IMG/VR virus record: IMGVR_UViG_3300036652_000269
Coordinates: 1 to 64,000 of that record
DNA length: 64,000 nt
Source: a virus
Direction: 5' to 3' (one strand)
The notes beneath the pieces are model-generated. The model did no database searches. It saw only the letters and a list, made by a program, of their open reading frames with translations, and was not told the origin of the DNA. Each line of letters opens with the position of its first letter. The stretch's first letter is position 1. Below are positions 33,656 to 48,890 of the stretch, in pieces. The position numbers were made by a program, and so were the translations under genes.

Positions 33656-35818
33656 CTATTCCAACGACACACCCAACGAGGCCAGGTCGAAGGACTTGGT
33701 GTCGATGACAACCCGATCCGACTTGCCTTCGGTGTCATCGTCGCTGCCGCCGTCCATCCAGTCTTCGGGCAGCTTGCTTGTCAGATTGAGATCTTTGGCG
33801 CGCTTGATGATGAACTGCTTGGCAGCTTCTTCGTCACTGGCACGACCGATGGACTGGATGGCGTTGTCCAGGTCGTCTTCGTTCTCGATGGGGAAGCTGA
33901 AGCTGCCGTCCGGGTTCTTCAGGGCGTGACCCTGCTTGCCCAGTTCTTCCCGCTTGGCAGTCGTGAACTGCCGCTTGATCTGGTAATCGATGTCGTAGTC
34001 CTTGACGGCCACTGTGTTCTCCCATGCCTTCGAGTCGGGAACCTTGTGCATGGCCTCCATGCGGGCCACGAAGTCAGCACTGCTTTGCTTGATGGTGTTT
34101 GTCTTTCCGATACGTGCGATCCGCCGCTTCTTGTCCACGTTCCGGGCCTGACGCATCGCGGCCCAGTGCTGCGATCCCTGGTGTCGCATCGATGCGTAGA
34201 TGTGTGCACTGTTCGGGTGCAACGTGGACACGTCCAACGTCTGCTTGGGAGTGAGCTTCAGCACGCCGTAGTTAATGCCCTGGGTCGGGTGCCCGACCAG
34301 ACGCCCGTACTTGGCCACACCGGCTTCGGTACGCACCATGGCTTTCGATTCGACAACCATGTTGGGCGACCACGACTTGGCCGATTCACCGGACATGTCA
34401 ATGTCACCACCCGACTCGCCTGCCTCGGGGTCCTGGTTGTCGTCCGCCTGGTCGATGGCCTTGGCGATGGCCTGTGCCACACCCTTCAGGGCATCACTGC
34501 CGTCACCGGTTGCGCTGTCGATAGCCGCGTCGATGGCGTCCAGGATGTTGTCTGCCGCCTTTTCGATGGCTTCGGGGTCGTCACCGATGATGGCGTGGTC
34601 GAAGTTCTGTGCCATCGGTGCCAGCTGGTGCAGGACGTCGGGTTCGATGTCATCTTGATACCCGTCAAGCACCTGCACGATGCTGACCGGCTCGTTGTCA
34701 GCCGATTCGTCGTCGTCCCCGGTGCCACTGTCTGCGCTGTCCGCTTCCCCGGCCTTTTCACGAGCATCGTTGCTGGCGTCTTCCAGCGGGTCACGCGGCT
34801 GCGGTGGCGGGTTGAAAGGGTTGGACGGCATCGGCAACGATGACCCACCCGTAGGGCCAGCAGGGGCAGCCTTTTCGCTGATGGTGTCTTCGTTCATCGG
34901 GTCCTTGGGCCCGTTCGGGTTCTTGCGAGGCTCTTCACCCGTCATCGCGTACAGCAGTTCCCCGATGGCGTCCTGCACCTTGCGCACCAGGTCCAGGTTG
35001 GACGCACTGATGCTGAACACGCCATCACCCTGCGGGTACTCGTCCGGGGTTTCCAACGCCTTGTGTTCGCTGTCGTCTTCGTCATCGAACAGTTCGCCGT
35101 CTTCGTCGCCTTCCCCTTCGCCGGTCCCGTCATCGTCGTCCGTGATGTCGGTACCTTCGTGGGTCTCGGCTTCGTCTTCGGCTTCGTCGTCGTCAGTGTC
35201 GTCGGGCACCTTGGTGGCCGACATCGCTTTGACTTCCTGCATGAAGGCATCGGGAGTGGTCCCGAAGAAGTCCTTGAACTGGACCCAGGCTTCCTGTGCC
35301 GACTTCACCGATTCGGTACGGGCAGCTGACATGGCACCGAACAGCACCGGGCTGTACTCGAACAGGTCGAGGTAGTCGATGGTACGGATGCCCTTTTCCT
35401 GGGTGGCCCCACCGACCGGGACGTTGTAGCCGATGGACCACTCCTGCTGGTCCCCGAAGAACTTCACGTCTTCGTAGGCTTCCCGGCCCCGCTGTGTGTT
35501 CAGGTTGAACTGCATCTTGACCTGAAGGGCACCGGCAGCCTTGGGCCACGGTGAACCATCCGGCAGAGTCGTTGGCAGTGCAGGATCGCCAGGCATCAGT
35601 TCCTTGATTTCCAAGGTCTTACTGATGCTCTTCTCCCACGAGTGGTGCCAGACGCCCTTGGGAATGCGCTTCTGCAACGTCTTGGTGTACGCACCAGGCT
35701 TGATGATGTCGGACACGTTGTCCACGATGCCTGTCACACTGACAAGCGCAGTGACCACACCCGCGCCGTCGTCTGCTTTGACGCCGGTAACACCTACCGA
35801 CTTGTACTGAAGCTCCAT
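33656..35818 (-). CDS. HK97-family prohead protease fused to a long acidic scaffold and extra domains
   Basis: DIIKPGAY..TL, WHH, WSIGY, LFEYSPVLFGA; C-terminal PDGSFSFPIEN.DDL.NAI..IGRA domain. Confidence 0.9.
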   Translation of the reverse strand: MELQYKSVGVTGVKADDGAGVVTALVSVTGIVDNVSDIIKPGAYTKTLQKRIPKGVWHHSWEKSISKTLEIKELMPGDPALPTTLPDGSPWPKAAGALQVKMQFNLNTQRGREAYEDVKFFGDQQEWSIGYNVPVGGATQEKGIRTIDYLDLFEYSPVLFGAMSAARTESVKSAQEAWVQFKDFFGTTPDAFMQEVKAMSATKVPDDTDDDEAEDEAETHEGTDITDDDDGTGEGEGDEDGELFDDEDDSEHKALETPDEYPQGDGVFSISASNLDLVRKVQDAIGELLYAMTGEEPRKNPNGPKDPMNEDTISEKAAPAGPTGGSSLPMPSNPFNPPPQPRDPLEDASNDAREKAGEADSADSGTGDDDESADNEPVSIVQVLDGYQDDIEPDVLHQLAPMAQNFDHAIIGDDPEAIEKAADNILDAIDAAIDSATGDGSDALKGVAQAIAKAIDQADDNQDPEAGESGGDIDMSGESAKSWSPNMVVESKAMVRTEAGVAKYGRLVGHPTQGINYGVLKLTPKQTLDVSTLHPNSAHIYASMRHQGSQHWAAMRQARNVDKKRRIARIGKTNTIKQSSADFVARMEAMHKVPDSKAWENTVAVKDYDIDYQIKRQFTTAKREELGKQGHALKNPDGSFSFPIENEDDLDNAIQSIGRASDEEAAKQFIIKRAKDLNLTSKLPEDWMDGGSDDDTEGKSDRVVIDTKSFDLASLGVSLE

Positions 35819-35875: not shown

Positions 35876-37987
35876 TCAATGGCCCGAAGCGGCCCGAAGG
35901 ACCGCAGCGGTGTGTTGGTCGAGACTGCCTGTCACTGGTAATCCTGCTTCCCGCTGAACTGTCGAAATGCCAGCTTGCCCTTCCGGCAACCCAAGGTTCT
36001 GCATCGCCTGGTGTGCCTGCGCCACTTGTGCAGGAGACAGTTGTACAGCCGCGGGCTTGGTGGTTCCGGCTGGCTTCTGGCCACCCGTGGTGTAGGTGAA
36101 CTTCCCGCCGACCCGTGGGTGCTTGGACGGGTCCCAACCTGCTCCGCTGGGGCCGGTGTTGCTGGCGTTCGGGTCAGCGTGGTTGGGATCGCCACCCGGC
36201 TGCTTGGCTAGTTCTGCCTGCGCTTGGTTGAAGGCGGTCGTGGGGTCGGACGATGCCAACGCAGTGCTACCTGTCTTCCCGACACCCTTGCCCTTACCGG
36301 TAGCCGTCTTCTTGGGGGCCGCAGTCCTACGGCTGCCACTGCTGCCACCACGGGCCGCTGCTCGGTGGGTACCACCGTGCCCGGCATGGGACGACGACCC
36401 CTTGGGCGGGGCTACTGCTGCCGGTGCCTTGCTACCCGACCACGCCTTGCTGTCTTTCTGAACGAAGTCACGCACGCCTACTACCTCGTCACGCCCCACC
36501 TTGTCCTTGGCCCAGTCCACGTGGTCGTCGCACACCGGAACCTGGGCCATCCCTTCTGCCCAGAGCACACCTTTGGTCGCGGGCTTTGAACAGTCGGGGT
36601 TCTTGCAGTGGTAGGTCTTGGTGGCGATGTAGTCAGCACGCTGCATCACGTAGGACTTGATGTCTGCGTAGTCACGAACGACTTTCCGTTCGATACCCGG
36701 TTCGAACGACTTGCCTCCCGCACGCTGGTTCAACTTGCGCATGACGGCATCACGGGATGCACCTTCGTGCAACACGTAGTCATGCTGGTCGGTGGCCACC
36801 CACTTGTTCGGGGTTTCCGCACCCACGTAGTAGACGTTGTTGTCCGCCCCCTTGTACTTCTCGAAGTTGTCGTATTCCGACCGCAGCTTGTTCAGGTTTT
36901 CGTACGTACCCGCTGGCTTCTTGGCACCGACACGCACCGTCCGTTCCTTCGCACGTTGCAATGCAGCCTGGCGTGCCTCATCACGACGGGCAGCAGCAGC
37001 TGTCCGTTCGACAACCGGGGGTTTGTGGTTCGCCTGCCGGTCGGCATCGGCAGCGTTTGCTGCATCACGCCGTGCACGTTGCTTCGCAATCTCAACAGCA
37101 GCGCGCATCTTTTCGGACGCCGACGTGTCCACCGAAAGGTTTGGCACGCCGTAATACTGCCGCTGTTCATTCCACAACGTCGGTGTCATGTCATGCAGGT
37201 GTTGTTCAGCTTCCGCTACCTTGCCCTGAGACATCGCGTGGACGGCAGCTTCGATGTGCTTCTGTACTTCGGGGTGTTTGATAGCCGGAGTCTTTTCATG
37301 GTGTTGCAGACCCGCAACCAAACTATTGGCGACGCTTTCATCGTCTTCGAAGTACCCATCATGGATGATGTGCTTGTCCCCGTTGAGCGCAGTGAACTCG
37401 TACTTGGTGTGCTGCGCTGGGTTAGACACCGTTGTGATGGTCGATCCGATGTCGGCACCATGGCGACGGGCACCAGCTTCGGTAGCCACCCGCCTAACGT
37501 GTGAACCTCCGGATGCCCTACTTCCCCGTACGCCAGTGATGTGCCCCTGGGTGTAAGTGGTTCCGTGTTCGTTAGACCCGAGCATCCGACCAGACGTACC
37601 GATGGTCCATCGTCCGTGTTCATCGCGGACTTCGTTGATATTGAAGATTTTCTGTTCGACAGGTGCATCGAACGCTTTGCCCGACGTACCCTTCATTGCC
37701 TCCCACTGGGCCAGTGCGGCCTGTGCCTTAGCCACCGTGTCGGGGTGCACCTTGTCACCACCACGAGCCCACCGCTTGATGGCACCGATGGCCAGTTCGA
37801 TGGCGTTGCTTTCGTCCGCGTGCCCGGTCCGGATCAGGGCATGGGCTATCTCCCTGACATACGGGGGCAGGCCACCACGGCGGGTGACCCAGTTGTCCCC
37901 CGTGCCCAGGGGTGACGTGTCATGGGGACCGCCAACCACCTTGAACTCTGCGAGAAGTTCTAGCTCGTTGTCAGTCAGCATGTTCAA
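35876..37987 (-). CDS. multi-domain head-associated protein (helical N-domain, RDEHGRW motif, Zn finger, C-terminal PG-binding-like domain)
   Basis: 703 aa ORF; CKNPDC...VCDDH; VQREAGLPVTGSLD. Confidence 0.7.
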   Translation of the reverse strand: MNMLTDNELELLAEFKVVGGPHDTSPLGTGDNWVTRRGGLPPYVREIAHALIRTGHADESNAIELAIGAIKRWARGGDKVHPDTVAKAQAALAQWEAMKGTSGKAFDAPVEQKIFNINEVRDEHGRWTIGTSGRMLGSNEHGTTYTQGHITGVRGSRASGGSHVRRVATEAGARRHGADIGSTITTVSNPAQHTKYEFTALNGDKHIIHDGYFEDDESVANSLVAGLQHHEKTPAIKHPEVQKHIEAAVHAMSQGKVAEAEQHLHDMTPTLWNEQRQYYGVPNLSVDTSASEKMRAAVEIAKQRARRDAANAADADRQANHKPPVVERTAAAARRDEARQAALQRAKERTVRVGAKKPAGTYENLNKLRSEYDNFEKYKGADNNVYYVGAETPNKWVATDQHDYVLHEGASRDAVMRKLNQRAGGKSFEPGIERKVVRDYADIKSYVMQRADYIATKTYHCKNPDCSKPATKGVLWAEGMAQVPVCDDHVDWAKDKVGRDEVVGVRDFVQKDSKAWSGSKAPAAVAPPKGSSSHAGHGGTHRAAARGGSSGSRRTAAPKKTATGKGKGVGKTGSTALASSDPTTAFNQAQAELAKQPGGDPNHADPNASNTGPSGAGWDPSKHPRVGGKFTYTTGGQKPAGTTKPAAVQLSPAQVAQAHQAMQNLGLPEGQAGISTVQREAGLPVTGSLDQHTAAVLRAASGH

Positions 37988-38238
37988 CCAACCTTCATGG
38001 GCGTGATGGTGTCAGGTTCGACTTGACGGCTCTTGCCTGTTGGCGTCGTCACCCAGTATTGCGTGTAAGCGCCGAACGGGGTGTCAACATGTGAAGTCGT
38101 CAACGTGCCGAGGATGCCAAGCTCATCACCCAGCGGTTCGTCCGGCCCATCTGGTGCATAGACAGCGCCCGGTACATCGTGGCGTCCATCGAAGTTGTAC
38201 AGCTTGGCCCGCACCATCGTGCCGTCGTCGGGAATCAT
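37984..38238 (-). CDS. hypothetical protein
   Basis: 84 aa; GAGG RBS; coupled to its neighbours. Confidence 0.65.
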   Translation of the reverse strand: MIPDDGTMVRAKLYNFDGRHDVPGAVYAPDGPDEPLGDELGILGTLTTSHVDTPFGAYTQYWVTTPTGKSRQVEPDTITPMKVG

Positions 38239-38240
38239 GG

Positions 38241-40067
38241 TTACCTCTTCTGGGGTGGGCCCATGATGCCGGGTGGCACGGGCTTCGGGAACGCTACACG
38301 TTGGCTGGCAGTGGCACCTCGTTCAGTACCACGCTTTGGCTTTGTCTTCAAGACAGACGCGATAAAAGCAGGCGTATACCACGCTGGCTTGGCCGCCTTC
38401 AGTCCTGTGCCTTCGTGCATCGGCTTGTCAGAACGAAGTTTGTTGCACCCAGAACACGCCGGGACGATGTTGTTGGTTCGGTACTTGCCACCCAGGTTGG
38501 TGGTGATGATCTTGTCTTGCTCAAACATCGGTAACTTGCCCTTGTTGTGCCACGACATCTTGCACCCGCAATAGACACAGGGCACGTAACCCTTGTCCTT
38601 GCCCTTGGCGTCCACCCCACCGAACTCGACATAGACCGCCCAGTTGCGATTGTCCCGGTCCAGGTTGTTTCCACGCAGGTTGCGGAAGGCTTCACCGCCA
38701 GCAGCGATTCGTGCCTTGTTGTCAGCTATCTCGATAGGCGTCGGCTGCGGGATAGCTTTGGCCTTGGCAATAGCTTGCTTCTGCGCTCGCTTCAGTTCGG
38801 CGTTGGACACATGTTCGTGCACCACGTCCTTTTCGCTGCGGTGTACCCCAGTGCCTGTCGTTTCGATATGCGTGTACTTGGTCTTGCCCAATGCAGATCG
38901 AGCGGCCCCAAACGCCGACCACCTACCATGGTCATCGCGTAGTTCGGCAGGATCGAACTTCTTACCTTCTTGTGTTTCGACAATCGGACCGTGGTAGCCG
39001 TACTCACTGATGGAGTTGCCATCGGTGTACAGATGCTTGGCCTTGACTGTCGCACTGATAACCGGCAGGTCTTTTTCCGGGTCAGTGGGGTGCAGCCCGT
39101 GTTGCCGGGCGTAGGCAGGGTGTACAGCAACCCAGTCACCAGGGTTGATCTGTCGGACTCCATGCGGGACGGACCGATAGATGGTGACATCGGCTTCCGG
39201 GTTGCCACGAACCTGTTGTGCTACCTGCATCCCGTACGGGTCGTGTGCCTCGTCGTGGATGTAGAAATGCGGGTTGGTATAGACGTCGTCTGGATAGACG
39301 CCGTTCTGCGTCAGGTCATGGATCGGGGCATCGTTCTTGTTCGGTGCTGTATGTAGCCCCCGATAGTCGGTGGTTTCCTGCTTCAGTACCTCGTACGCCT
39401 TGCGATACGGGTCCAGTGACGGATCGTTGTCGCCTTCGATCCATTGATATTCCGACATGGGGTCACTGGACTGCTTCATGTAGTCGTAAGCCGAGTGCCA
39501 TGGTTCGTGGATGGCCACGATCTGGCTGGGCTTCACGTCGCCTTTCATGATGACATGGTGGTGACCCTGTTGCCACTCATCCAACAACTGGTTACCGGCC
39601 AATGACGACTGCGGGTGTTCGGCCCGCTGGCTGATTTCGTCAGGGTGGGCGTGGAACTCGACTACCGCACGCTTGGCGTGGGCATCCATTTTGGGCATGT
39701 ATGAAGATGCCCAGACACCTGCTGACGGTTCGTTCCCTGCCCCTAGACCACCATCACCATGAGCATGGCTTTCCAACAACCCATGTTGCCTTATCGAATC
39801 GACATTTTCGGTAGACGTGTAGTGGAACAGCCTGACGTGCCCTGCCGGGATCGCAGCCCACCGGCCATGCAGGCCACGGGCTTCGGCAGGGTCGAAAACC
39901 TTGGCCTCTAGACGGGCTGTACGGCCCGCTGCCGGGTCAATGGGCTGCCAGACGGGTGCTGGCCCAGCCAGCCCACCCAAAGCCTTCAGAAAGACGTTCA
40001 GCGCAGCTTTGACCTGGACCTCCTGGGCACGAGCCCTGATCCGGTCGCTGATGATCACTTGACCCAC
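38241..40067 (-). CDS. multi-domain protein: two ADP-ribosyltransferase-like domains plus a C-terminal HNH-like nuclease
   Basis: LFHYTS...SIRQHGL..GVWAS; TIYRSVP..INPGDWV..YARQH..EYGY; CVYCG...GGKY..NNIVPACSGCN. Confidence 0.7.
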   Translation of the reverse strand: MGQVIISDRIRARAQEVQVKAALNVFLKALGGLAGPAPVWQPIDPAAGRTARLEAKVFDPAEARGLHGRWAAIPAGHVRLFHYTSTENVDSIRQHGLLESHAHGDGGLGAGNEPSAGVWASSYMPKMDAHAKRAVVEFHAHPDEISQRAEHPQSSLAGNQLLDEWQQGHHHVIMKGDVKPSQIVAIHEPWHSAYDYMKQSSDPMSEYQWIEGDNDPSLDPYRKAYEVLKQETTDYRGLHTAPNKNDAPIHDLTQNGVYPDDVYTNPHFYIHDEAHDPYGMQVAQQVRGNPEADVTIYRSVPHGVRQINPGDWVAVHPAYARQHGLHPTDPEKDLPVISATVKAKHLYTDGNSISEYGYHGPIVETQEGKKFDPAELRDDHGRWSAFGAARSALGKTKYTHIETTGTGVHRSEKDVVHEHVSNAELKRAQKQAIAKAKAIPQPTPIEIADNKARIAAGGEAFRNLRGNNLDRDNRNWAVYVEFGGVDAKGKDKGYVPCVYCGCKMSWHNKGKLPMFEQDKIITTNLGGKYRTNNIVPACSGCNKLRSDKPMHEGTGLKAAKPAWYTPAFIASVLKTKPKRGTERGATASQRVAFPKPVPPGIMGPPQKR

Positions 40068-42457
40068 CGTCCGTCGTTTCGCAGGTATCGAAGTTCCAGT
40101 TGCCGGTACGTGTGGTCAGGAAGGATGTCGAAGTATAAAACCATCGGCACCACGAAGGGGAACTTCCCCGCGATGTCGGCTTCGGTAGCACCCACGAGTA
40201 CAAGCAGCTTGGTTCGTGTGTCGATGGTACCGGCAGCACCAGCTTCGGTTGCGGACCCGATGGTGATGCTGACGCTGCGGGTCAACACTCCCGCTGTCCC
40301 GGTTTCTGTCACTGTGCCAAACGTGGGCAGCAGCTTCGTCCGGGATAGCGTCTGGGCAGCACCTGTCTCAGTGACAGTTCCCAGGGTCAATGTCTTGGAC
40401 TGACCGAACGATCCCGCCTGCCCCGATTCCACGACGCCGGTCAATATCAGGGTCTTGGCCCGCTGCCCCAGGGCGTGGGCGACATCTGCCTCGGTGGCGA
40501 CACTGAAGCTAGCCAACTTGCTTCGTGACAAGGTGCCGGTTGCATCGGCTTCACTGGTACCGGTGAAACTAAGTTTCTTGGCCCGTGTCAGACCTCCGGC
40601 GATGCCGGACTCGGTAGCTGTACCAATGACAAGCGATCCGGTCAGTACAAACGTGCCGGTGGTGTCTACTTCCGATGCAGTCCCCAGGGTCAACGCTGCC
40701 CGTCCGACGACAAGACTTCCGGCAGTGTCTGTCTCGCTGGCAGTCCCGATGCCTAAGGTCTTCGTCCGGACGAACGTGCCTGCTGTTTCGACATCGTTGT
40801 CCGTGGCAAGTGTCAGTGCCTTGCTGCGAGTTGTGAAGGCCATCGCGGCACCTGCTTCGGTAGCAGTACCGAAACCAGCCGACTTCGCACGGATGAACGT
40901 TCCTGTCGTGCCCAGGTTGCTGACCGTACCCAGGGTCAACGACTTCGAGTGCGTGAAGGCACCGGTCGTACCGATGTTGGTGACAGTGGCCAGCCCGATT
41001 GTCTTCGCACGACTAAAGGTGCCAGCAATACCGGTGTTGGTGGCCGTCCCCAAGGTCAGTGACTTTGTGCGAGTGAAAGTGCCAGCTGTACCCGTGTTGG
41101 TGGCTGTCCCGATAGTGGTGGTGTGTGAAACGCCACCGGGCAGCGGAATGGCCCATACCGTTGCTGTGCCACCGCTAACCGTGCCGTTGAGTGTGATCGA
41201 GTTATCGGCTGGAGTGACACCGGACGGCAGCAACTTGACGTACAGCGCACCGTAGATTGCACCGTTGGCCGTTCCGGCTCCAGAAACACCAGACGCGATC
41301 TGTGCCCAGCCATCTGGCAGGGTGGTTGCGTCAGTTGCGCCAGCACCCGCGTCTATCATCATGACAAGCAAACGGTTTACGGCCGATGCTGGCAATGTCG
41401 AAATGGTGTACGCGAGTGCTGCCCCGCCACCAGAGTGCTTGAACGTCTTCGACCATGCTGTCGAAGCGTCTGCACCAGCTAGTTTCGCAGTGATCCACAA
41501 CCATGCTCGGCTAGCGGTGGTGTGTGCAGCCCAGAAGTTCGTGTTCGACGTGTCGTTTGTGCCGTTGAACAACCACGACGAAAACGTGGTTGATGTGGCT
41601 TGTTCGAAGTCGAACTCTGCCCAGTTGCCCGAGCCAGCCGATCCGTTGTAGCCCAATGTGATGCTGGAACTCGATGCACTGGCATTACCGGCACCGGCGA
41701 CTAGCACAGTGTTGCCATTCACCACCCCAGTTGGGGCAGTTAGTGTCCGGTCAGTTGCCGTCGCAGCATCGTTGGTGACGACAGGACCATCAAGCTCTGG
41801 CCAGGACCCTTGCACTAGGTTGTAGCAGAAAGCTGCGATCTGCGTGTACGTCGGGCACGTCCACATGCCTGTCGGTGAGACAGTCCCTGCGGTTGCAACA
41901 TTCGTGTGCGCCGCTTCGGACGTGTACATGGTTCCGGAAGTCTGGTTGTTGACGCCATCGTCAGTCCAGCCAGAACCACCAGCCGCAAGAGTGGGTGACG
42001 TGGACGAACGACAGGTGATCGCGTTCACCATGACGCAGTTGTCAACAGCACTAGTCGCAACCGCACCAGCAGGGGTAGCTGAGCCACCGTTATACGAATA
42101 CGTTCCGGACAGGCCTCCGTACGTGATCGGGGTCCATGTCCCCGACCATTCGGCAACCCGCCACAGCATCCCTGTGCCGGACGCGCCGACGTTGCCGAAC
42201 GTCACAGTCGTCGTAGACAGAGCGTTTTGGCACATCCACAGTTCGAACGTGTACGTGTTGACCGGCTTCCAAACCAGTTTCCATGTGTTACCCGCGTTGT
42301 CGGTCACTGTGTTGGCTGCTGAGTTGCCACCGCCCCAATGGACAGAAGCGATCAGTGTGTTGCCAGCCGTTGTTGCGGTCGCAAAAGAAACAGTCGAGTT
42401 ACCAGTGGCCCCAGACTGCTTCTTGCCTAGCGCGACCTGAACTGGGCTGTCGCTCAT
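40055..42457 (-). CDS. fiber-like virion protein: two N-terminal beta-sandwich domains plus ~16 copies of a 20-aa repeat
   Basis: Thr/Gly/Ala-rich; repeat TLGTATExxxAGTFxRxKxL. Confidence 0.7.
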   Translation of the reverse strand: MSDSPVQVALGKKQSGATGNSTVSFATATTAGNTLIASVHWGGGNSAANTVTDNAGNTWKLVWKPVNTYTFELWMCQNALSTTTVTFGNVGASGTGMLWRVAEWSGTWTPITYGGLSGTYSYNGGSATPAGAVATSAVDNCVMVNAITCRSSTSPTLAAGGSGWTDDGVNNQTSGTMYTSEAAHTNVATAGTVSPTGMWTCPTYTQIAAFCYNLVQGSWPELDGPVVTNDAATATDRTLTAPTGVVNGNTVLVAGAGNASASSSSITLGYNGSAGSGNWAEFDFEQATSTTFSSWLFNGTNDTSNTNFWAAHTTASRAWLWITAKLAGADASTAWSKTFKHSGGGAALAYTISTLPASAVNRLLVMMIDAGAGATDATTLPDGWAQIASGVSGAGTANGAIYGALYVKLLPSGVTPADNSITLNGTVSGGTATVWAIPLPGGVSHTTTIGTATNTGTAGTFTRTKSLTLGTATNTGIAGTFSRAKTIGLATVTNIGTTGAFTHSKSLTLGTVSNLGTTGTFIRAKSAGFGTATEAGAAMAFTTRSKALTLATDNDVETAGTFVRTKTLGIGTASETDTAGSLVVGRAALTLGTASEVDTTGTFVLTGSLVIGTATESGIAGGLTRAKKLSFTGTSEADATGTLSRSKLASFSVATEADVAHALGQRAKTLILTGVVESGQAGSFGQSKTLTLGTVTETGAAQTLSRTKLLPTFGTVTETGTAGVLTRSVSITIGSATEAGAAGTIDTRTKLLVLVGATEADIAGKFPFVVPMVLYFDILPDHTYRQLELRYLRNDGRWVK

Positions 42458-42551
42458 CAGTTACCCCAGACCATGAACACACCCGTGCCTGTACGGGCTA
42501 TCAGCCTGACAGACACGGGTGTGACCTCTTTCAGAACGTCAGGGGTGCGAA

Positions 42552-43004
42552 CTACGCCGCGAAGAATCCGCCAGCCGGGCAGTTGATGGTCTGCGTGGTG
42601 CCGTCCGTGGTGAAGGGCGCATCGTGAGCGGTCAACGGGATGATGTTCGAATCGGTACCGCCCGTGGTGTCGTTGTCGTAGCAGACCAGCAGCTTCACGA
42701 CGGAGTTGTTGATCGCCCCACCCGCGTTGGTGTAAGTCAGCGGGTCGAATGTCACCTTGACAGTGTTTGCAGTGTTGTCCACCGTCACCACGACGTTCGC
42801 GGGATCGAGCCGGGTGTAGTTCGTGAAGGTGGCTTCGGTGTTGCCAGCCGCCGCAATCAGGGTGGCCAGGTCGGTGTAGTTGTTCAGCGTGTCGTCTGCC
42901 TCGGCTGCCTGAAGCAGCACGACGACCAATGCGTCGTTGGTGGCAGGTAGCCCGGCGTAATAGGCCACCTTGCCCTTGGCACCGTTGAAAACAAAGCTGC
43001 CCAT
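42552..43004 (-). CDS. virion structural protein (fiber-associated)
   Basis: 150 aa beta-rich protein adjacent to the fiber gene. Confidence 0.65.
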   Translation of the reverse strand: MGSFVFNGAKGKVAYYAGLPATNDALVVVLLQAAEADDTLNNYTDLATLIAAAGNTEATFTNYTRLDPANVVVTVDNTANTVKVTFDPLTYTNAGGAINNSVVKLLVCYDNDTTGGTDSNIIPLTAHDAPFTTDGTTQTINCPAGGFFAA

Positions 43005-43047
43005 CGGGGTCTGCTCACTTTCTCGTTTCGATAGTTGGGTCTGCTGG

Positions 43048-43512
43048 CTAGGCCGTCTGTGGCTTCAGCCATAGGTCGATACCGGGGATTGCATCGGCCG
43101 GTGGTGGTGGACTGCCCCGCCACTGGACAACTCGGGTTGGATCGTTGGTGATGCTGGCCCTGGTCGGGTAGGTGCCGTTGCTGTCCGGTACCACGGTCAC
43201 CGGCACCTGTGGTGGCAGGTCGTCCACCGTGTAGCTGGCGTTGGTTCCCGGAGCACCCTTCAAGGATGCCAGCCAGTCGTCTTCGTTGCCCTGAAAACCA
43301 CGGGCCACGGCCAGTTCGTACGGGCTGGCTCCTTGTGGGCCCTGTCCACCCGCATCACCCTTGGTACCCTTCAGCGATGCCAGGAAGTCGGCCTGGGTAC
43401 CGGTGTTCCCTGCTGCCAGCCAGAGTTCATAGGCAGACTGCCCTGGCTGACCGATCTTCAGCGGGATGACGGGGTTGGTCGGTGCCCCCGAAAAGGTGAT
43501 CTGCGTGGTCAT
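43048..43512 (-). CDS. collagen-like structural protein with SAYELW/SPYELA...G..G...[FW]LASLKG repeats
   Basis: Two repeats flanked by Gly-X-Y triplets. Confidence 0.75.
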   Translation of the reverse strand: MTTQITFSGAPTNPVIPLKIGQPGQSAYELWLAAGNTGTQADFLASLKGTKGDAGGQGPQGASPYELAVARGFQGNEDDWLASLKGAPGTNASYTVDDLPPQVPVTVVPDSNGTYPTRASITNDPTRVVQWRGSPPPPADAIPGIDLWLKPQTA

Positions 43513-43518
43513 CGTGGT

Positions 43519-43893
43519 TCACGCTTTCTTCAGGTAGACAGTGCCGAACAACAGGTCGGCGTTCCCGTCCGTGGCACTGGTGATGGCCAAGCCCCAGGAC
43601 GAACACTGCACTCCGATTGTCTGGACGACAGACTTCGGCAACTTCAGCAACACGTCACCTTCGGCCAGGCCGTCCGGATTCCCGACCGCAGACATGTCAC
43701 TGAAGTATTGCGACAGATCGAGGATGATGTCCGGTGACCCGCTGGACAGCTTGATTTTCGAAACGAAAGTGTACGGCGTCACGTCGAACGGCTGCCCGTT
43801 GACCACGATGTTCCACTTGCCCCAGAAGTCGGTGGACTCGTCCAGGTACAGGTCGAACTTCTGGGCGTCAATGATGCTGCTGTTGACGATCAC
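43519..43893 (-). CDS. structural adaptor-like protein (BppU N-terminal-like)
   Basis: GQPFDVT.YTF.SKIK...G.V.L.L; precedes the collagen-like gene. Confidence 0.55.
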   Translation of the reverse strand: MIVNSSIIDAQKFDLYLDESTDFWGKWNIVVNGQPFDVTPYTFVSKIKLSSGSPDIILDLSQYFSDMSAVGNPDGLAEGDVLLKLPKSVVQTIGVQCSSWGLAITSATDGNADLLFGTVYLKKA

Positions 43894-45389
43894 GTCAGAC
43901 TCCCTCGATGGGCACGGTCAACGGCTTCCTGCACTTCATCTTTCGACAGCTTGCGACGACGCTGGGGCTTCCCGGACAACGGGGCCACCACTATGGGGAG
44001 TTGTCCGGACGGCATCCCGGATGGGCTGATGGGTCCGCCACCGAATACGTCCTTGAAGTCGTCCCCGTCCGCACTACCACCGCCCGCACCATCGATCCAG
44101 CCGTCACTGCCGAAGCTGATGCCACCATCGGCCCCACCACTGGGTTCGAGGTCGTCACCTTCCGACGAGTAGCTGCTGTCGTTGCAGTAGGTGCCCAGCG
44201 GCTGTTCTTGTCCGCAGATCAAACAGCGAGGGTGCCCGTTCGGGTGTGTCCATGCGGCCGGGGTGAAAGCGTGCTTGCCCTTCGCCTTTGCGGTCTGCTT
44301 GTTCTTCTTGATGAGTTCGGTTTCCTCGTCCGCCGTGATCCCGGTCTGGGCGGACATCGCGGATGACAGGTCCTTGTGCCGCCTGTCTTCTTGATAACCA
44401 AGTTGGGCAATCCGCTTACGGCGTTCCTCGCGCTGGTGTTCCAGGAACTGGCCTGCCGTCATAGCCGGGGTGCCAGCGGCCCTGTAGCGGTCGCTGCGGC
44501 CCTGGGGCTTCTTGCTGGCCACTTCCATGGCACGTTCGATCTGGGCAGCCCAGCGACCACCACGGCCACGTGGCTCGGCGGGGTTGAACGACTTGTCTTC
44601 CGTCGTTTGCCCGAAAGGGATGTCCACCCGGTTCGAGCCATGTACGACCGACAGATGGCTGAAGGTCACCTGCCGAGGTTGCCACCTGTTGATCGGCTGG
44701 TCGTCGGTCGGGTCCAGGTAGGCCAAGGTCATGTGCGGGGAATAGCCGTGACTACTGACTGGCTCGTATTTTCTGTCTGTCAGAAAGGCTTGGGTGACAA
44801 CCTGTCGCAACCGTTCGACTTCCGGCGCATCGACGTTGACCACCAGCGGGTCCTGGCCACCTTCGTCAGAATCCTCACCACTGAACCGGGTGATGCCGTT
44901 CAGCTTCGCAGTGATCGGGGCGAACTGGGAAGCGACTTTCTTCCCGATATTCACCAACTCTTTCTGGGTTCCGGCCACATCGCTGCCGACCTTGCCCAGA
45001 TACAGCACCGTGCAGTGCAGGTCGTCGGGGTACAGCCCGTCCGGTAGAGCGATCTGTTGGGCATCGCCGGGACTGGGGTGCAGGGCTACCATGACGCCGG
45101 TCGAATAGTCCGGGCCAGGTGCCAGCTTCTTGGATTCCGTCTGCCAGATAGCAGCGGCTTCACGCATCAGGTCAGCGGAGAGGTTCTTGGCTTGCAGACA
45201 GTAGGCGGCAGCACCCAGCATGTCTGTCTTCATGATAGTTGCGACCTGCGACACTTTGGTCGCGTCGCTGCCGTCTGGCAGTTCGACAGGCAGCTGCTTG
45301 ATCTGGCCTGCCTCGGGACGGGCTAGGCGGTCCTGCAATGCGGCCAGCATCCCCAGCATCTTGGCCGACACACGGATCGAGCCCGGCAC
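43890..45389 (-). CDS. 2H phosphoesterase (2'-5' RNA ligase/Acb1-like) domain protein with head-module motif and Zn knuckle
   Basis: Two HxT motifs, LHCTVLYLG and PHMTLAY; KSFNPAEPRGRGGRW; HPRCLICG. Confidence 0.8.
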   Translation of the reverse strand: MPGSIRVSAKMLGMLAALQDRLARPEAGQIKQLPVELPDGSDATKVSQVATIMKTDMLGAAAYCLQAKNLSADLMREAAAIWQTESKKLAPGPDYSTGVMVALHPSPGDAQQIALPDGLYPDDLHCTVLYLGKVGSDVAGTQKELVNIGKKVASQFAPITAKLNGITRFSGEDSDEGGQDPLVVNVDAPEVERLRQVVTQAFLTDRKYEPVSSHGYSPHMTLAYLDPTDDQPINRWQPRQVTFSHLSVVHGSNRVDIPFGQTTEDKSFNPAEPRGRGGRWAAQIERAMEVASKKPQGRSDRYRAAGTPAMTAGQFLEHQREERRKRIAQLGYQEDRRHKDLSSAMSAQTGITADEETELIKKNKQTAKAKGKHAFTPAAWTHPNGHPRCLICGQEQPLGTYCNDSSYSSEGDDLEPSGGADGGISFGSDGWIDGAGGGSADGDDFKDVFGGGPISPSGMPSGQLPIVVAPLSGKPQRRRKLSKDEVQEAVDRAHRGSLT

Positions 45390-45969: not shown

Positions 45970-46097
45970 GTCTTTACCTTCCTTGTCGAACGGTGGGTGT
46001 GGTACGGACGGGTCTCTTAGAAGCATAGGGCTTCATCTGGCGGAACATACAGAAGCCCAAAACTTCGGGGTGTCCATCTGTCAGCTAGACAGTCTGG

Positions 46098-46457: not shown

Positions 46458-48890
46458 CTAGCGCTTGGGAGCCCAGTTGCACCAGCACCGGCAGTTGATG
46501 ATTTCGTCCAACGCACCTGCTGGGTCACCAGGGTAGAGCATCTTGGATTCTCCGACAGTGAAACGGTCGCCACCGGAAACTGACTTCCCGTCCACCATGG
46601 CGTGGGTGTGCCGGACCCGCTCGTCGTCTTCGGTCCACCAGGTCTTCGTCATGTAGTCGGCAGCCGTTCCGTACACCGCCTGCCGGATGCCTTCAACCGT
46701 TGAAGTTGTCAGGTTGACAGCAAGGCCCGTCTTCCAGCTGGACCGAGCGCCCACCATCTTGGTGACCGCCTTCTTGATTTCCGTCATGGACGCACCCTGG
46801 CTGTCCAGTTCGGCAATCTTGGCAGCGACCTTCTCGGACTGCCGCATGGCTGACGATTCCACGATGCCCAACGCCTGACCCAGCACGTCGTACAGCTTGG
46901 CTTCCGGATCGATGAACAGCCGGGTCAGTGGAGTGTTGCCGAACTGGTTGATCCGCCCGCTGTCCGCCATCTGGTCGATGACCCCGGCTTGGTGCAGGGA
47001 TCGGGCAGCACGCTTGGCTTCGCGTTCGAGGATGGGCTTCAGCAAGGTGTGCATGTCGCCCACGATGTCCTGCGACCATTCGTCACCAGCCACCACGTAC
47101 ATCGGGTCCAAAGCCTTCGTGCCGACTTCCTTGCCGTCCCAGTGCCGGGTGTGCTTCAGCACCTTGGCGTGGTCCAACCGGGACAGGAAGACCTTCTCTT
47201 GGCGATGACCCCAGACCGTCAGCCCGGTTTCGACTGTCGCTTCGATAGTTGCACGCAGCTGAAGGTACGGGTGTTCCTTGTATTCGGGCTCGATGACTAT
47301 TTCGGCGTCGATGATGTCCGGGTCATCACCCCCGGTGTCGGACAGCATCTTTCGTTCGATGAGTTCGTTCATTGATGCCTTGGCCGCAACCCGTTCCGCA
47401 CGGGCTGCCACGACCCCCAGGGCTGCCTGCACCGGGTTGAAGGACGACGCCGGTCCACCGATGGGGGCCAACGGCTTCTGAGAGCCCCCAGGAAGGGCTG
47501 CCGGGGCTGCCGGGGCACCGGGAAGGGCCGGGGCCTGTGCAGGGGCACCAGGGGCACCCTGCGTCATCGACTGCCTGGCCAGGGCGGACTCGGCACGCAT
47601 CATGCCAGCGATGGCTGCCGCTGCCAGGTTGGGCAGGTTGCGGATCGCTTTTTCGTCGTCCGGGTCCCGCGCGATGACCACACCGTTGGGCAGGAACAGG
47701 GCACGGGTGCCAGGGATGTCCCAGGGCTTCTCCCCGACTGCCCGGAAGAAATCGTCCAGGGTGGCTGCCCCGGCTGCGACTTCGGCCAGCTTGTTCGTGC
47801 GCCGGGTGTTGATGGCCCGTTGCAAGACTTCGACTCCGCTGAAGTCGTAGGCCAGGTTGATGTCGTCGTCCAGGTCACCGGTCAGGGCGTTCAGCCCCAT
47901 GGCCATGCCCTTGCAGTGGTCTATCTCGGTGTGCAGCCAGAACCCTTCGAGTTCTGCGTCCGCGTTGTCAAACGTACGACCCGAGGCATTGCCCAGCACC
48001 GATTCCGCGACACCGAACGCCAGCAGCAGATCGTCCTTACCTGCCTTCAGCCCAGCCAGCCACTCGATGTCGCGGGGGGTGGCACCCAGGTCCTGCACGC
48101 TGATGTCGTCGGCTTCGATGACGATGGTCTGGCCAGCAGCCAACGGACCACCCGTGAACCGGTTCTTGATTTCCTGAGCATCACCGGGGCTGGTGTCACC
48201 CTTGATGCCGACCAACAGACCAGGGCGTCCGTCGTTGGTGATGAAGTTCCGGTTGAACAACCTGGCGAGCCAGTCGCTTTCCGCCACGATGCCTGCCGAC
48301 ACCATCGGGGTCAGTTGCTGGTACGGATCGGTCGGGTGCGGCATCAGCTTGATCCAGATCACCTGATCGGGAGCCAACGTCTGCACCGTGTAGTCGGACC
48401 GGGTGACTTCATACCCCGACACGAAGGTGATCGGGTCTGGTATCGGGTTGACAGCTTCTGCGTTCAGCAGGTGCAGTTGCGACGGCCTGCCATCCCGACC
48501 TCGCACCACTTCGACAAAGGCACCTTTGCGGGACAGCAGCAGTTGGGTGGACAGCCGGTACCGGAACATCCAAGCTGTCTCGTAGATGTTGGCGTTCAGG
48601 TTCAGCAGCTTGTACAGCCGGGGGTCGTCAATGGTCGTCCCGGTTTCGTAGTCACCCCGGCGCAGGATGATGGGTAGCCCGGCCTGCTTGGACGCGATGG
48701 CGTTCACACACCGTGCCACCCAGATGACTTTCTCCAAGCCATCCTTGACAGATCGACCCAAGTCCCACGGACCAACCGGACCTGACGACCGGATCAGTGC
48801 ACGGCCCAAGGCACCCGACGACCGTGCCACCGCACCAGCCGAGCTAGCCGTACGCCGGTTCAGCAGCGGTGCGAGGAAGTTGCCTGGCAT
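46458..48890 (-). CDS. portal protein (HK97-like) fused to a C-terminal MuF/gp7-like minor head domain
   Basis: Portal motifs (CVNAIAS, F..DGRPG, AFGV..SVLG); MuF motif KTW...DERVRHTH...YPGDP...INCRC. Confidence 0.9.
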   Translation of the reverse strand: MPGNFLAPLLNRRTASSAGAVARSSGALGRALIRSSGPVGPWDLGRSVKDGLEKVIWVARCVNAIASKQAGLPIILRRGDYETGTTIDDPRLYKLLNLNANIYETAWMFRYRLSTQLLLSRKGAFVEVVRGRDGRPSQLHLLNAEAVNPIPDPITFVSGYEVTRSDYTVQTLAPDQVIWIKLMPHPTDPYQQLTPMVSAGIVAESDWLARLFNRNFITNDGRPGLLVGIKGDTSPGDAQEIKNRFTGGPLAAGQTIVIEADDISVQDLGATPRDIEWLAGLKAGKDDLLLAFGVAESVLGNASGRTFDNADAELEGFWLHTEIDHCKGMAMGLNALTGDLDDDINLAYDFSGVEVLQRAINTRRTNKLAEVAAGAATLDDFFRAVGEKPWDIPGTRALFLPNGVVIARDPDDEKAIRNLPNLAAAAIAGMMRAESALARQSMTQGAPGAPAQAPALPGAPAAPAALPGGSQKPLAPIGGPASSFNPVQAALGVVAARAERVAAKASMNELIERKMLSDTGGDDPDIIDAEIVIEPEYKEHPYLQLRATIEATVETGLTVWGHRQEKVFLSRLDHAKVLKHTRHWDGKEVGTKALDPMYVVAGDEWSQDIVGDMHTLLKPILEREAKRAARSLHQAGVIDQMADSGRINQFGNTPLTRLFIDPEAKLYDVLGQALGIVESSAMRQSEKVAAKIAELDSQGASMTEIKKAVTKMVGARSSWKTGLAVNLTTSTVEGIRQAVYGTAADYMTKTWWTEDDERVRHTHAMVDGKSVSGGDRFTVGESKMLYPGDPAGALDEIINCRCWCNWAPKR

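What the first reader, a model, noticed from the sequence alone, without database searches (positions are those of the whole stretch)
35876..45389. Candidate capsid-loaded effector polyprotein system: shared ExK / F(D/N)PxExRxxxGRW tag in front of enzyme domains in three head-module genes
Seen: the same peptide occurs four times in three otherwise unrelated genes between portal and prohead protease. The copies are VEQK-IFNINEVRDEHGRW (~37607-37657), LEAK-VFDPAEARGLHGRW (~39859-39909), QEGK-KFDPAELRDDHGRW (~38919-38970) and TEDK-SFNPAEPRGRGGRW (~44550-44600), plus a variant WDPSKHPRVGGKF (~36097-36137). Each full copy is preceded by E-x-K and sits at a domain boundary next to an ART-like, HNH-like, 2H-phosphoesterase or unknown domain. 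Established: HK97-type prohead proteases cleave after Lys, and T4 loads internal proteins (including the ART Alt) into heads and processes them with its prohead protease. Inference: the motif is a modular capsid/scaffold-docking tag, and the ExK sites let the protease release individual cargo enzymes that are injected with the DNA to counter host defences or take over the host.
Basis: partly seen in the sequence, partly recalled or inferred. Interest (0 to 1): 0.92.

Follow-up and report, generated by a model that had tools for sequence, protein, structure and literature searches.

The report
Tagged effector modules in phage head genes
Three head-module genes of an uncultured high-GC phage carry enzyme modules that each begin with the same short peptide, set just after a likely protease cut site; the peptide is very common in phage head proteins and phage-linked toxins, I found no description of it, and its job is still unproven.

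Summary
F(D/N)(P/I)xExRxxxGRW occurs four times in three minus-strand genes between the portal-MuF gene and the S78 prohead protease, against 0 expected. Each copy is preceded by E-x-K-x, and a variant WDPSKHPRVGGKF is also present.

The peptide is not special to this phage:
- A degenerate DNA scan found at least 118 viral loci. Positions I left free were conserved, giving the consensus FDPxEPRDxxGRWT-GGG.
- A profile found 1,306 protein clusters, with up to 9 copies per protein.
- It is always a module header: at least 100 residues follow it in 135 of 138 proteins, and it is often at the very N-terminus.
- It sits on portals of three families, MuF proteins, ARTs, nucleases and 2H enzymes.
- It also occurs in chromosomal polymorphic-toxin genes of Alphaproteobacteria, with Imm52 and housekeeping neighbours.

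ExK is not part of the general tag (3 of 115 copies). It is a junction signal of this phage lineage and also precedes a second tag type.

The capsid protein's likely maturation site, TK|DVFG, recurs in the protease and in the 2H protein. This supports processing of cargo by the protease.

"Docking tag" is unproven and partly undermined, because portal-fused cargo needs release rather than targeting.

I found no Pfam model, solved structure or paper for the tag. This scan has met it before on other DNA.

The parts
46458..48890 (-). Portal protein fused to a MuF-like head-morphogenesis domain (810 aa); upstream border of the cargo region
   Evidence: Pfam Phage_portal E=3e-33; Phage_Mu_F 22.9 bits, below the cut-off. 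PHROG portal 1e-75 and head morphogenesis 4e-16.
43890..45389 (-). 499-aa cargo protein: leader, ExK (45129-45137), 2H phosphoesterase (44643-45047), ExK (44592-44600), tag (44550-44588), unknown module, FK|DVFG (44040-44057), basic C-terminal tail
   Evidence: Pfam 2_5_RNA_ligase2 E=6.5e-10; PHROG RNA ligase 2e-19; motif positions.
44550..44588 (-). Tag copy FNPAEPRGRGGRW, preceded by EDK-S
38241..40067 (-). 608-aa polyvalent protein: 56-aa helical leader, ExK, tag 1, ART-like module A (39369-39857), module B (38970-39245; matches PHROG 'ParB C-terminal domain' phrog_2579), ExK, tag 2, HNH nuclease module (38259-38837)
   Evidence: Modules A and B occur separately in other architectures.
39858..39896 (-). 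Tag copy FDPAEARGLHGRW, preceded by EAK-V (ExK at 39900-39908)
   Evidence: pLDDT below 50 over residues 55-69
38919..38957 (-). Tag copy FDPAELRDDHGRW, preceded by EGK-K (ExK at 38961-38969)
   Evidence: pLDDT below 50 from residue 373
37984..38238 (-). 84-aa gene between the two large genes. Its homologue is an internal segment of the single 983-aa gp26 of Gordonia phage FlyingTortilla, so the array is split into three genes here
   Evidence: PHROG phrog_960 positions 358-429; FlyingTortilla gp26 sequence
35876..37987 (-). 703-aa protein: conserved helical 'KRWA' head module (37688-37915), ExK (37649-37657), tag, second tag type HVRRVATEAGARRHGADIGSTIT (37433-37501), Cys-rich WAEGMA mini-domain (36503-36613), variant tag, peptidoglycan-binding-like end (35888-36070)
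37607..37645 (-). Tag copy FNINEVRDEHGRW (Ile in place of Pro), preceded by EQK-I
36098..36136 (-). Variant tag WDPSKHPRVGGKF (HPRxxxGKF type), in front of the peptidoglycan-binding-like module
   Evidence: In protein P0003 the related variant WDEADHPRGADGKF occupies the position of the GRW tag in front of a homologue of module A.
33656..35818 (-). Prohead protease (S78, residues 1-181) fused to an acidic scaffold-like region; FK|DFFG (35261-35278) just after the protease domain; half tag NPFNPPPQPRDPLED (34778-34822); ESK-AM-VRTEAGVAKYGRLVGHPT (34283-34336)
   Evidence: Pfam Peptidase_S78 E=5e-11; PHROG head maturation protease 1e-27; motifs
32191..33540 (-). HK97-fold major capsid protein with a ~149-residue delta domain; probable maturation site TK|DVFG at 33082-33099
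   Evidence: Pfam Phage_capsid 2e-39. In the alignment to HK97 gp5, W165 pairs with I116, which places HK97 S104 at about residue 153. A related viral capsid protein has GRK|DVY at the same column.

Best explanation
The three genes encode phage 'polyvalent' head proteins. These are strings of unrelated enzyme and binding modules (ART-like, HNH, 2H phosphoesterase, peptidoglycan-binding-like, unknowns). They are probably co-assembled into the procapsid, cut apart by the phage's own S78 prohead protease, and delivered with the DNA.

Two separate signals mark the joints.

(1) A lineage-specific cut signal. It takes the form E-x-K| in front of the tags, and (T/F)-K|D-(V/F)-F-G in the capsid protein, the protease and the 2H protein. 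Lys is P1, as in HK97.

(2) A module header directly after the cut. This is the ~20-residue tag F(D/N)PxEPRDxxGRW(T) followed by a Gly/Ser/Thr-rich linker. It is widespread and apparently undescribed. It ends up at the N-terminus of the mature module, either natively (Met-x-FDP...) or after cleavage.

Shown: the sequences, their positions, the tag's distribution, its header syntax and its link to head genes.

Inferred: encapsidation, cleavage and injection.

The header's own function is unresolved. My favoured reading is a portable signal that works from the N-terminus of capsid-internal cargo, for retention or organisation on the inner capsid, scaffold or portal, or as a leader for exit through the portal. 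It would not be a removable address label.
For: Tag is real and widespread:
- 4 copies against 0 expected.
- At least 118 viral loci carry in-frame copies. Free positions are conserved: D after R in 94 of 112, T after W in 66 of 112, then GG.
- 1,306 clusters at E<=1e-3 among 1.84 billion representatives.

Header syntax:
- Median spacing between tags is 260 aa.
- At least 100 aa follow the last tag in 135 of 138 proteins, and 12 aa or fewer precede the first in 15 of 138. Gly content doubles after the tag.
- About 20 of 115 copies sit at ORF N-termini.
- The tags lie in low-confidence linkers before folded modules.

Head link:
- Tag-bearing ORFs include about 9 portals, 5 MuF and ART-PolyVal, Zeta toxin and InPase domains.
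- Their neighbours include 10 portals, 5 S78 proteases, capsid proteins and terminases.
- Architectures seen: portal-tag-toxin and MuF-tag-PBECR3.
- The PHROG 'head maturation protease' family 12708 starts with the tag (weak, E 0.03-0.18, from four unrelated tag segments).

Cut signal:
- HK97 cuts at K103/S104 (PMC10275583).
- The capsid protein's TK|DVFG aligns near that site. K|D(V/F)FG occurs only in the capsid protein, the protease and the 2H protein.
- ExK precedes 8 of 11 tags of two different types in this lineage, where about 0.03 per site is expected.
- Junction residues at -2 and -1 are consistent within a protein (0.50 and 0.42) but not between proteins (0.17). Positions -3 and -4 are not consistent, which argues for selection rather than recent duplication.
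- Among capsid-typed records, internal K/R-preceded tags go with an S78 protease (5 of 6). N-terminal tags go with no S78 and a capsid protein without a delta domain (4 of 4).

The concept of head-packaged multidomain effectors is established (PMC5512222, PMC3482391).
Against: - There are no protein-level data. The phage is an uncultured IMG/VR record, so packaging and cleavage are unobserved.
- E at P3 is absent from the three K|D(V/F)FG sites, so ExK| and K|DVFG may not be read by the same enzyme.
- Only 1 of 14 near-complete tag-bearing genomes has a detectable S78 protease. The tag cannot depend on that protease.
- About 40 of the 80 bacterial-genome loci analysed carry the tag in chromosomal toxin genes. 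The 24 of these loci I sampled have housekeeping and Imm52 neighbours and no head genes within about 4 kb. This does not fit a strictly capsid-bound role unless such toxins are loaded in trans.
- AlphaFold gives the isolated tag only moderate confidence (pLDDT 69, one beta-bridge).
- The S78/junction correlation rests on 10 records (Fisher p about 0.05).
Confidence: 0.55

Rival explanations
1. One reading: the tag is a capsid- or scaffold-docking (cargo-loading) peptide, like an encapsulin targeting peptide or the T4 capsid targeting sequence. ExK only serves to separate the cargo modules.
For: The tag occurs on every class of protein that must be inside a procapsid: portal, MuF, protease and effectors. 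It heads standalone proteins at their N-terminus next to terminase and portal genes. A Gly-rich linker follows it, as in encapsulin cargo peptides.
Against: Portal- and MuF-fused cargo is already tethered, so a docking tag there is redundant. The tag stays on the product instead of being removed. Portal types, capsid types and proteases vary among tag-bearing phages, so no single conserved partner is evident. Chromosomal toxin loci lack head genes. No structure contains the tag.
Confidence: 0.3
2. The tag is the primed-side recognition element, or a pre-toxin junction, for proteolytic release. It would be comparable to the pre-toxin domains of polymorphic toxins. Its purpose would be to free each effector from its anchor (portal, MuF or N-terminal trafficking domain).
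For: It always lies between an anchor and an effector or between modules, never as a trailer. K/R is enriched at -2 and -1 (29% and 24% against 12%), with a register consistent within each protein. Portal-tag-toxin fusions logically require release. Chromosomal toxins show N-domain, an invariant K at -3, the tag, then the toxin.
Against: About a fifth of copies sit at the extreme N-terminus, where nothing needs releasing. Tag-bearing genomes use varied proteases, or none detectable. About half of internal copies lack K/R upstream.
Confidence: 0.25
3. The tag acts after delivery in the target cell. It might recruit a conserved host factor, aid refolding or membrane passage of effectors that travel unfolded, or set their lifetime.
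For: It is shared by phage cargo and by chromosomal polymorphic toxins from several phyla: Proteobacteria, Planctomycetota, Actinomycetota, Gemmatimonadota, Bdellovibrionota. What these share is delivery into another bacterium, not a capsid. In the K-at-minus-1 class a cut would expose N-terminal Phe or Tyr.
Against: It also occurs on portals and proteases. Portals, from general phage biology rather than anything tested here, stay in the virion, and the protease link is only the weak PHROG match. No host partner is indicated by any result here.
Confidence: 0.12
4. The genes are not virion cargo. They are ordinary accessory or early genes that happen to lie in the head module, and the motif is a linker or recombination joint kept for domain shuffling.
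For: No proteomic evidence exists. Modules are clearly shuffled between architectures. Five non-head-like genes (collagen-like, TIG, an 800-aa repeat protein) also sit in this region.
Against: Amino-acid conservation holds across phyla at 13 or more positions despite different DNA. The tag is fused to portals, MuF and proteases. The capsid-type cut motif is present inside the 2H protein.
Confidence: 0.06

Closest known systems
Phage-type polyvalent proteins (Iyer, Burroughs, Anand, de Souza, Aravind 2017, PMC5512222)
   Same: Several unrelated enzymatic domains in one polypeptide, encoded among late or virion genes of portal-terminase phages, and predicted to be packaged and injected. ART, HNH, 2H, MuF and PBECR domains recur. 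Modules are shuffled between proteins.
   Different: That paper proposes processing mainly by built-in zincin metallopeptidases. Text searches of it found no repeated header peptide. No HExxH domain is found in this window's proteins. The array is split over three genes, and the joints carry ExK plus the tag.
MuF / phage-capsid-type polymorphic toxins (Zhang et al. 2012, PMC3482391; Jamet et al. 2017, PMC5576092)
   Same: Toxin domains fused behind a head protein and predicted to travel in the capsid. The tag sits exactly at the MuF-PBECR3 and portal-CDI-toxin joints in other genomes. Imm52 genes lie next to chromosomal tagged toxins.
   Different: The tagged proteins of this window have no MuF domain of their own and no obvious immunity gene. 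Text searches of the two papers did not surface a junction motif.
T4 capsid targeting sequence with gp21 processing (internal proteins, Alt), and propeptides of SPN3US/phiKZ ejection proteins (PMC10052503, PMC9026906)
   Same: Head-internal cargo is loaded into the procapsid and trimmed by the prohead protease at a short consensus site. Relatives here have 12-17-residue N-terminal leaders ending in ExK, much like a T4 targeting sequence ending in LxE.
   Different: In T4 and SPN3US the targeting part is the removed propeptide. Here the conserved tag lies after the predicted cut and stays on the product. The protease family is S78 (HK97 type, P1 Lys), not the T4 gp21 type (P1 Glu).
HK97 prohead protease system (cut at K103/S104; PMC10275583)
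   Same: S78 protease; capsid protein with a delta domain; the predicted maturation site has Lys at P1 at the homologous position.
   Different: The HK97 system, as far as I know, is not reported to carry enzyme cargo. Here the protease is fused to a long acidic scaffold-like region, and putative sites also occur in three cargo genes.
Encapsulin cargo-loading peptides
   Same: A short conserved peptide plus a flexible Gly-rich linker that marks cargo for an HK97-fold shell (from my own knowledge; the linker feature here is).
   Different: Different consensus. Mostly C-terminal in encapsulins, whereas here the tag is always N-terminal to its module. Shell binding is untested.

Membership tests
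Phage-type polyvalent proteins (Iyer et al. 2017) | Two or more domains of disparate biochemical activity in one polypeptide | tested here: met
   608-aa protein: ART-like module, second module (phrog_2579) and HNH. 499-aa protein: 2H domain plus an unknown module. 703-aa protein: head module, Cys-rich domain and a peptidoglycan-binding-like end.
Phage-type polyvalent proteins (Iyer et al. 2017) | Encoded among late or virion genes of a phage with portal-terminase packaging | tested here: met
   The genes lie between portal-MuF and protease/capsid. The record is a 100%-complete 89-kb virus genome.
Phage-type polyvalent proteins (Iyer et al. 2017) | Typical hub domains (zincin metallopeptidase, ArdC-N, MuF) in the same proteins | tested here: not met
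   None in the three tagged proteins at Pfam E<=0.01. MuF is on the portal gene instead. The relative FlyingTortilla gp26 carries an HELGH motif.
Phage-type polyvalent proteins (Iyer et al. 2017) | Physically packaged in the virion and injected | not testable with these tools
   No proteomics are available for this uncultured phage.
T4-type capsid targeting sequence cargo | Short N-terminal targeting peptide removed by the prohead protease | tested here: not met
   The tag lies downstream of the predicted ExK| cut and is internal in all four copies. Elsewhere it heads mature modules.
T4-type capsid targeting sequence cargo | gp21-type protease cutting after Glu in L/I-x-E | tested here: not met
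   The protease is Peptidase_S78. Candidate sites have Lys at P1.
MuF polymorphic toxins | N-terminal MuF domain and C-terminal toxin in the same protein, with an adjacent immunity gene | tested here: not met
   No MuF domain in the tagged proteins. No immunity family was seen, though I did not search for one exhaustively. The architecture is met by other tag-bearing proteins such as L134.
Substrates of an HK97-type (S78) prohead protease | Cut site with Lys at P1 matching the capsid protein's own maturation site | tested here: inconclusive
   K|D(V/F)FG is shared by the capsid protein, the protease and the 2H protein. ExK| shares P1 Lys and a hydrophobic P2' but not P3. No cleavage was measured.
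Encapsulin-like cargo-loading peptide | The peptide binds the inner face of an HK97-fold shell protein | not testable with these tools
   Only single chains could be folded. No PDB chain contains the tag.
Pfam or PDB families covering the tag | The tag is modelled by a curated family or present in a solved structure | tested here: not met
   No Pfam match over the tag even at E<=10. The best PDB hit has E=3.5 and is spurious.

The most novel reading that the evidence does not exclude
The F(D/N)PxEPRDxxGRW header, with its HPRxxxGKF variant, is a general and portable signal of tailed phages and phage-derived toxin delivery. It marks the N-terminus of any module that is to be carried inside a capsid and handed to the next cell, and it works together with a phage-specific protease site directly upstream. 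Chromosomal polymorphic toxins that bear it would then be loaded in trans into prophage or gene-transfer-agent-like particles. If so, it would be a natural, transferable label for loading proteins into phage heads.
Probability: 0.3. Interest if true: 0.85.

Novelty: new variant of a known kind. Interest (0 to 1): 0.62.

Why it matters
Head-packaged effectors act before any phage gene is expressed. How they are chosen, cut and released is known only for a few model phages (T4, P1, phiKZ-like). A single short header found on more than a thousand protein clusters, across portal families and bacterial phyla, would give a sequence handle for three things:
- predicting virion cargo from genomes;
- finding new anti-defence enzymes and toxins (many tag-bearing proteins tested individually had no Pfam match);
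- possibly loading chosen proteins into phage particles.

The link to chromosomal toxin-immunity loci also raises the question of whether phage-like particles deliver such toxins.

Tried and rejected
Searches that found nothing useful:
- Near-identical DNA search of the region against cultured phages: no match.
- tblastn with a 33-aa tag segment against cultured phages: only noise at E about 7-9, so I could not name cultured phages that carry the tag.
- Literature searches for the motif strings and for capsid-cargo tags: nothing relevant. The polyvalent-protein and MuF-toxin papers did not yield the motif.

Ideas rejected:
- ExK as part of the tag: rejected, 3 of 115 copies.
- Autocleavage at the Asp/Asn-Pro bond: rejected as a general mechanism. 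Pro is replaced by Ile in this window and by E, D, Q or I in many relatives.
- Nucleophilic Thr after Trp: rejected, only about 70% Thr/Ser.
- Dependence of the tag on S78 proteases: rejected, 7 of 44 records and 1 of 14 near-complete genomes.

Tests that did not work:
- phmmer of this phage's protease against tag-bearing ORFs, and tblastn of its capsid protein against the held loci: no hits. A broad test of co-variation between cut site and junction was therefore limited to one related capsid protein, GRK|DVY, with tag junction DIK-R-F.
- Profile of the N-terminal domain of the chromosomal toxins against the 703-aa protein's head module and against the PDB: no relation.

Full report
SETTING

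The window is the first 64 kb of an 89,278-bp virus record that CheckV rates 100% complete. GC content is about 60%. No near-identical cultured phage exists in the phage collection.

The structural genes run on the minus strand:
- portal fused to a MuF-like domain (46458-48890);
- a 103-aa gene;
- a TIG-domain protein;
- the 499-aa 2H protein (43890-45389);
- four genes unusual for a head module (124 aa; collagen-like 154 aa; 150 aa; an 800-aa repeat protein);
- the 608-aa protein (38241-40067);
- an 84-aa gene;
- the 703-aa protein (35876-37987);
- an S78 prohead protease fused to an acidic scaffold-like region (33656-35818);
- an HK97-fold capsid protein (32191-33540).

OBSERVATION

The degenerate DNA pattern gives 4 matches and none in 100 shuffles. 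All four copies are preceded by E-x-K-x.

In the AlphaFold model of the 608-aa protein, both tags lie in segments with pLDDT below 50, directly before confident modules at residues 70-233 and 275-370. The first module gives weak but uniform fold matches to DarT, Tpt1/KptA and cholera or pertussis toxin A. "ART-like" is therefore plausible, not proven. The 2H and HNH assignments are confirmed by Pfam and PHROGs.

THE TAG IS WIDESPREAD

All 131 copies are in frame in long ORFs. Positions I had left free are conserved: Asp after the first Arg in 94 of 112, Thr after Trp in 66 of 112, then Gly-Gly. The consensus is (K/R)(A/G)-F(D/N)PxEPRDxxGRWT-GGG.

A profile of 104 copies found 1,306 clusters at E<=1e-3 among 1.84 billion representative proteins, 161 of them at E<=1e-10, with up to nine copies in one protein.

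Among the top proteins:
- tags are spaced a median of 260 residues apart;
- at least 100 residues follow the last tag in 135 of 138 proteins;
- 15 of 138 proteins have 12 or fewer residues before the first tag;
- the 15 residues after the tag are twice as Gly-rich as the rest.

The tag is therefore a header of a module, never a trailer. With the 104-sequence alignment, AlphaFold gives the isolated tag moderate confidence (mean pLDDT 69) and a single beta-bridge between the Arg and the Trp.

WHAT CARRIES IT

Of 80 non-redundant viral tag-bearing ORFs, about nine contain a portal domain of one of five Pfam portal families. Five contain MuF. Others contain ART-PolyVal, ADPrib_exo_Tox, Zeta toxin, InPase, Topoisomerase I, 2H or DUF7178. 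Of ten viral tag-bearing ORFs tested individually, eight had no Pfam match.

Same-strand neighbours in 24 loci include ten portals, five S78 proteases, three capsid proteins and terminases.

In bacterial genomes the larger tag-bearing ORFs have these architectures:
- Portal_Mu, tag, C-terminal region without a Pfam match (two ORFs);
- lambda-type portal, tag, C-terminal region without a Pfam match (two ORFs);
- Phage_portal, tag, CDI toxin;
- MuF, tag, PBECR3.

A PHROG family annotated as head maturation protease begins with the tag. The matches are weak, but four unrelated tag segments reproduce them.

Homologues of this window's ART-like module are preceded, in other proteins, by the HPRxxxGKF variant, by a different motif (VRTxxGxxxFxxPIGSxI), or by nothing. 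The header is thus optional and exchangeable.

A CONTEXT OUTSIDE PHAGE HEADS

The scan of one genome per prokaryotic species gave 85 loci. Most are in Alphaproteobacteria and Planctomycetota metagenome-assembled genomes. A few are in Actinomycetota, Gemmatimonadota, Bdellovibrionota and Gammaproteobacteria.

Forty of these loci share one form. It has a conserved ~100-residue N-terminal domain of unknown kind, then an invariant Lys at -3, then FNPDEPRDxxGRWT, then a variable C-terminus. The C-termini identified are Tox-REase-5, a CDI-toxin EC869-like nuclease and Peptidase_M23.

Their neighbours within about 4 kb are housekeeping genes plus Imm52 immunity genes. No head genes appear among the 25 most frequent families.

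These are polymorphic-toxin loci. The tag is therefore not confined to head modules. What unites all contexts is a position between an anchor or trafficking part and an effector that is meant for another cell.

THE CUT SIGNAL

ExK is not part of the general tag (3 of 115 copies). K/R is, however, enriched at -2 (29%) and -1 (24%) against a 12% background.

Within multi-tag proteins the residues at -2 and -1 agree far more often (0.50 and 0.42) than between proteins (0.17). Positions -3 and -4 do not. Classes include K at -1, K at -2 and D at -2. This pattern suggests selection by something phage-specific rather than recent duplication.

In this phage's lineage, ExK precedes two different tag types:
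- the four GRW tags;
- the VRT-type motif in the protease-scaffold protein (ESK-AM-VRTEAG...);
- the VR(T/D) motifs of Gordonia phage FlyingTortilla gp25 and gp26;
- the corresponding motifs of proteins P0002 and P0168.

That is 8 of 11 within ten residues in the regex scan; the P0168 junction and the FlyingTortilla gp26 N-terminal copy were read by eye.

Relatives have 12-17-residue N-terminal leaders that end in ExK. This recalls the T4 capsid targeting sequence.

Separately, the capsid protein aligns to HK97 gp5 so that HK97's K103/S104 cut (PMC10275583) falls 3-4 residues from TK|DVFG. The motif K|D(V/F)FG occurs in only three proteins of the module: the capsid protein, the protease (directly after its catalytic domain) and the 2H protein. 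A related viral capsid protein has GRK|DVY at the same column, and its tag junction is D-I-K-R-F.

Among ten records with a typed capsid protein:
- internal K/R-preceded tags go with an S78 protease in 5 of 6;
- tags at ORF N-termini go with no S78 and a capsid protein lacking a delta domain in 4 of 4.

Overall, however, only 1 of 14 near-complete tag-bearing genomes has an S78 match.

INTERPRETATION

The best-supported picture is a polyprotein-like set of polyvalent head proteins. The phage protease cuts them at lineage-specific Lys sites, and a conserved header ends up at the N-terminus of each released module.

Three findings weaken it: portal- and MuF-fused cargo does not need targeting, the tag is retained rather than removed, and the tag occurs in chromosomal toxins.

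The remaining readings are a release or processing determinant, a leader for exit through the portal, or a function in the recipient cell. I could not separate them with single-chain tools.

KNOWN OR NEW

Head-packaged multidomain effectors and MuF-type toxins are established concepts (PMC5512222, PMC3482391, PMC5576092). Protease trimming of ejection proteins has been measured in SPN3US (PMC10052503).

For the tag itself I found:
- no Pfam model, even at E<=10;
- no PDB chain;
- no mention in the papers I could search.

Earlier follow-ups of this scan reported the same or sister tags on other DNA and reached the same "undescribed" verdict. I treated those as leads and re-tested the claims above myself.

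LIMITS

All function is inferred from sequence. The tallies come from subsamples of 80 ORFs, 24 + 24 loci and 44 records. The Pfam tallies list only the top 25 families. The alignment-based cut site is exact only to a few residues.

Noticed in passing
window 37433-37501 (703-aa protein) and 34283-34336 (protease-scaffold protein); L002 genes 25 and 26: A second repeated header type, (H)VR(T/D/R)xxxGxxx(Y/F/H)GxP(I/V)G, occurs in the 703-aa protein and in the protease-scaffold protein. It also occurs in Gordonia phage FlyingTortilla gp25/gp26 and in proteins P0002, P0003 and P0168. It is usually preceded by ExK, as the GRW tag is.
   Followed up: partly
window 33082-33099, 35261-35278, 44040-44057: (T/F)K-D(V/F)FG occurs in exactly three head proteins: the capsid protein (at the position homologous to the HK97 maturation cut), the protease (just after the S78 domain) and the 2H protein (53 residues from its C-terminus). 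FlyingTortilla's RNA ligase has NFGKDVFGGG at the equivalent place.
   Followed up: partly
window 37688-37915: The N-terminal helical module of the 703-aa protein (NWV..GGLP.YVR.IAHAL...AIG.IKRWARGG...AQWEA) is a mobile head-protein module. It is found before an S78 protease domain (P0165), between portal and MuF (P0167), at the C-terminal end of a Streptomyces MuF 'minor head protein' (P0170), and at the start of the large 'ADP-ribosyltransferase' gp9 of Streptomyces phage Intolerant. It may be the real capsid anchor.
   Followed up: partly
window 36503-36613: A Cys-rich mini-domain (C..C......WAEGMA..P.C..H) in the 703-aa protein recurs inside the FlyingTortilla portal, in P0005 and at the N-terminus of the P0165 protease.
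   Followed up: no
window 34778-34822: The acidic scaffold-like part of the protease gene contains NPFNPPPQPRDPLED. This looks like the first half of the tag without the GRW end.
   Followed up: no
window 40055-43893 and 45481-46409: Genes unusual for a head module sit between portal and protease: a TIG-domain protein, a collagen-like 154-aa protein with tail-fibre PHROG matches, a 150-aa protein (phrog_26662), and an 800-aa protein made of about 25-residue Thr/Gly-rich repeats. They may be head fibres, decoration proteins or an inserted cassette.
   Followed up: no
window 37984-40067 compared with L002:8644-11592: The 608-aa gene, the 84-aa gene and part of the 703-aa gene correspond to consecutive segments of one 983-aa gene in Gordonia phage FlyingTortilla. 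That gene also ends in an HELGH zincin-like motif that is absent here. The array has undergone gene fission or fusion.
   Followed up: partly
L130-L207 (bacterial genome loci), e.g. L137:4658-5626, L130:2230-3477, L190:2-1435: This is a family of chromosomal polymorphic toxins in Alphaproteobacteria metagenome-assembled genomes. It has an unnamed ~100-aa N-terminal domain, an invariant K, the tag, and a variable toxin (Tox-REase-5, CDI EC869-like, M23). The genes lie next to Imm52 and housekeeping genes, with several copies per genome.
   Followed up: partly
L014, L047, L061, L072 with L216, L219-L221: Four viral records carry the tag only at the N-terminus of ~290-aa standalone proteins (MV(N/D)FNPGEFRGFHGRW). 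One copy tested (L014) had no Pfam match, although a related header precedes a DUF7178 domain in L023. They lack an S78 match, and their capsid proteins start directly at the N-arm with no delta domain.
   Followed up: partly
L046:1007-3823: A 939-aa viral ORF carries the tag at residue 116 and an S78 protease domain. Its C-terminal part resembles the 'major capsid and protease fusion protein' of Rhodococcus phages.
   Followed up: no
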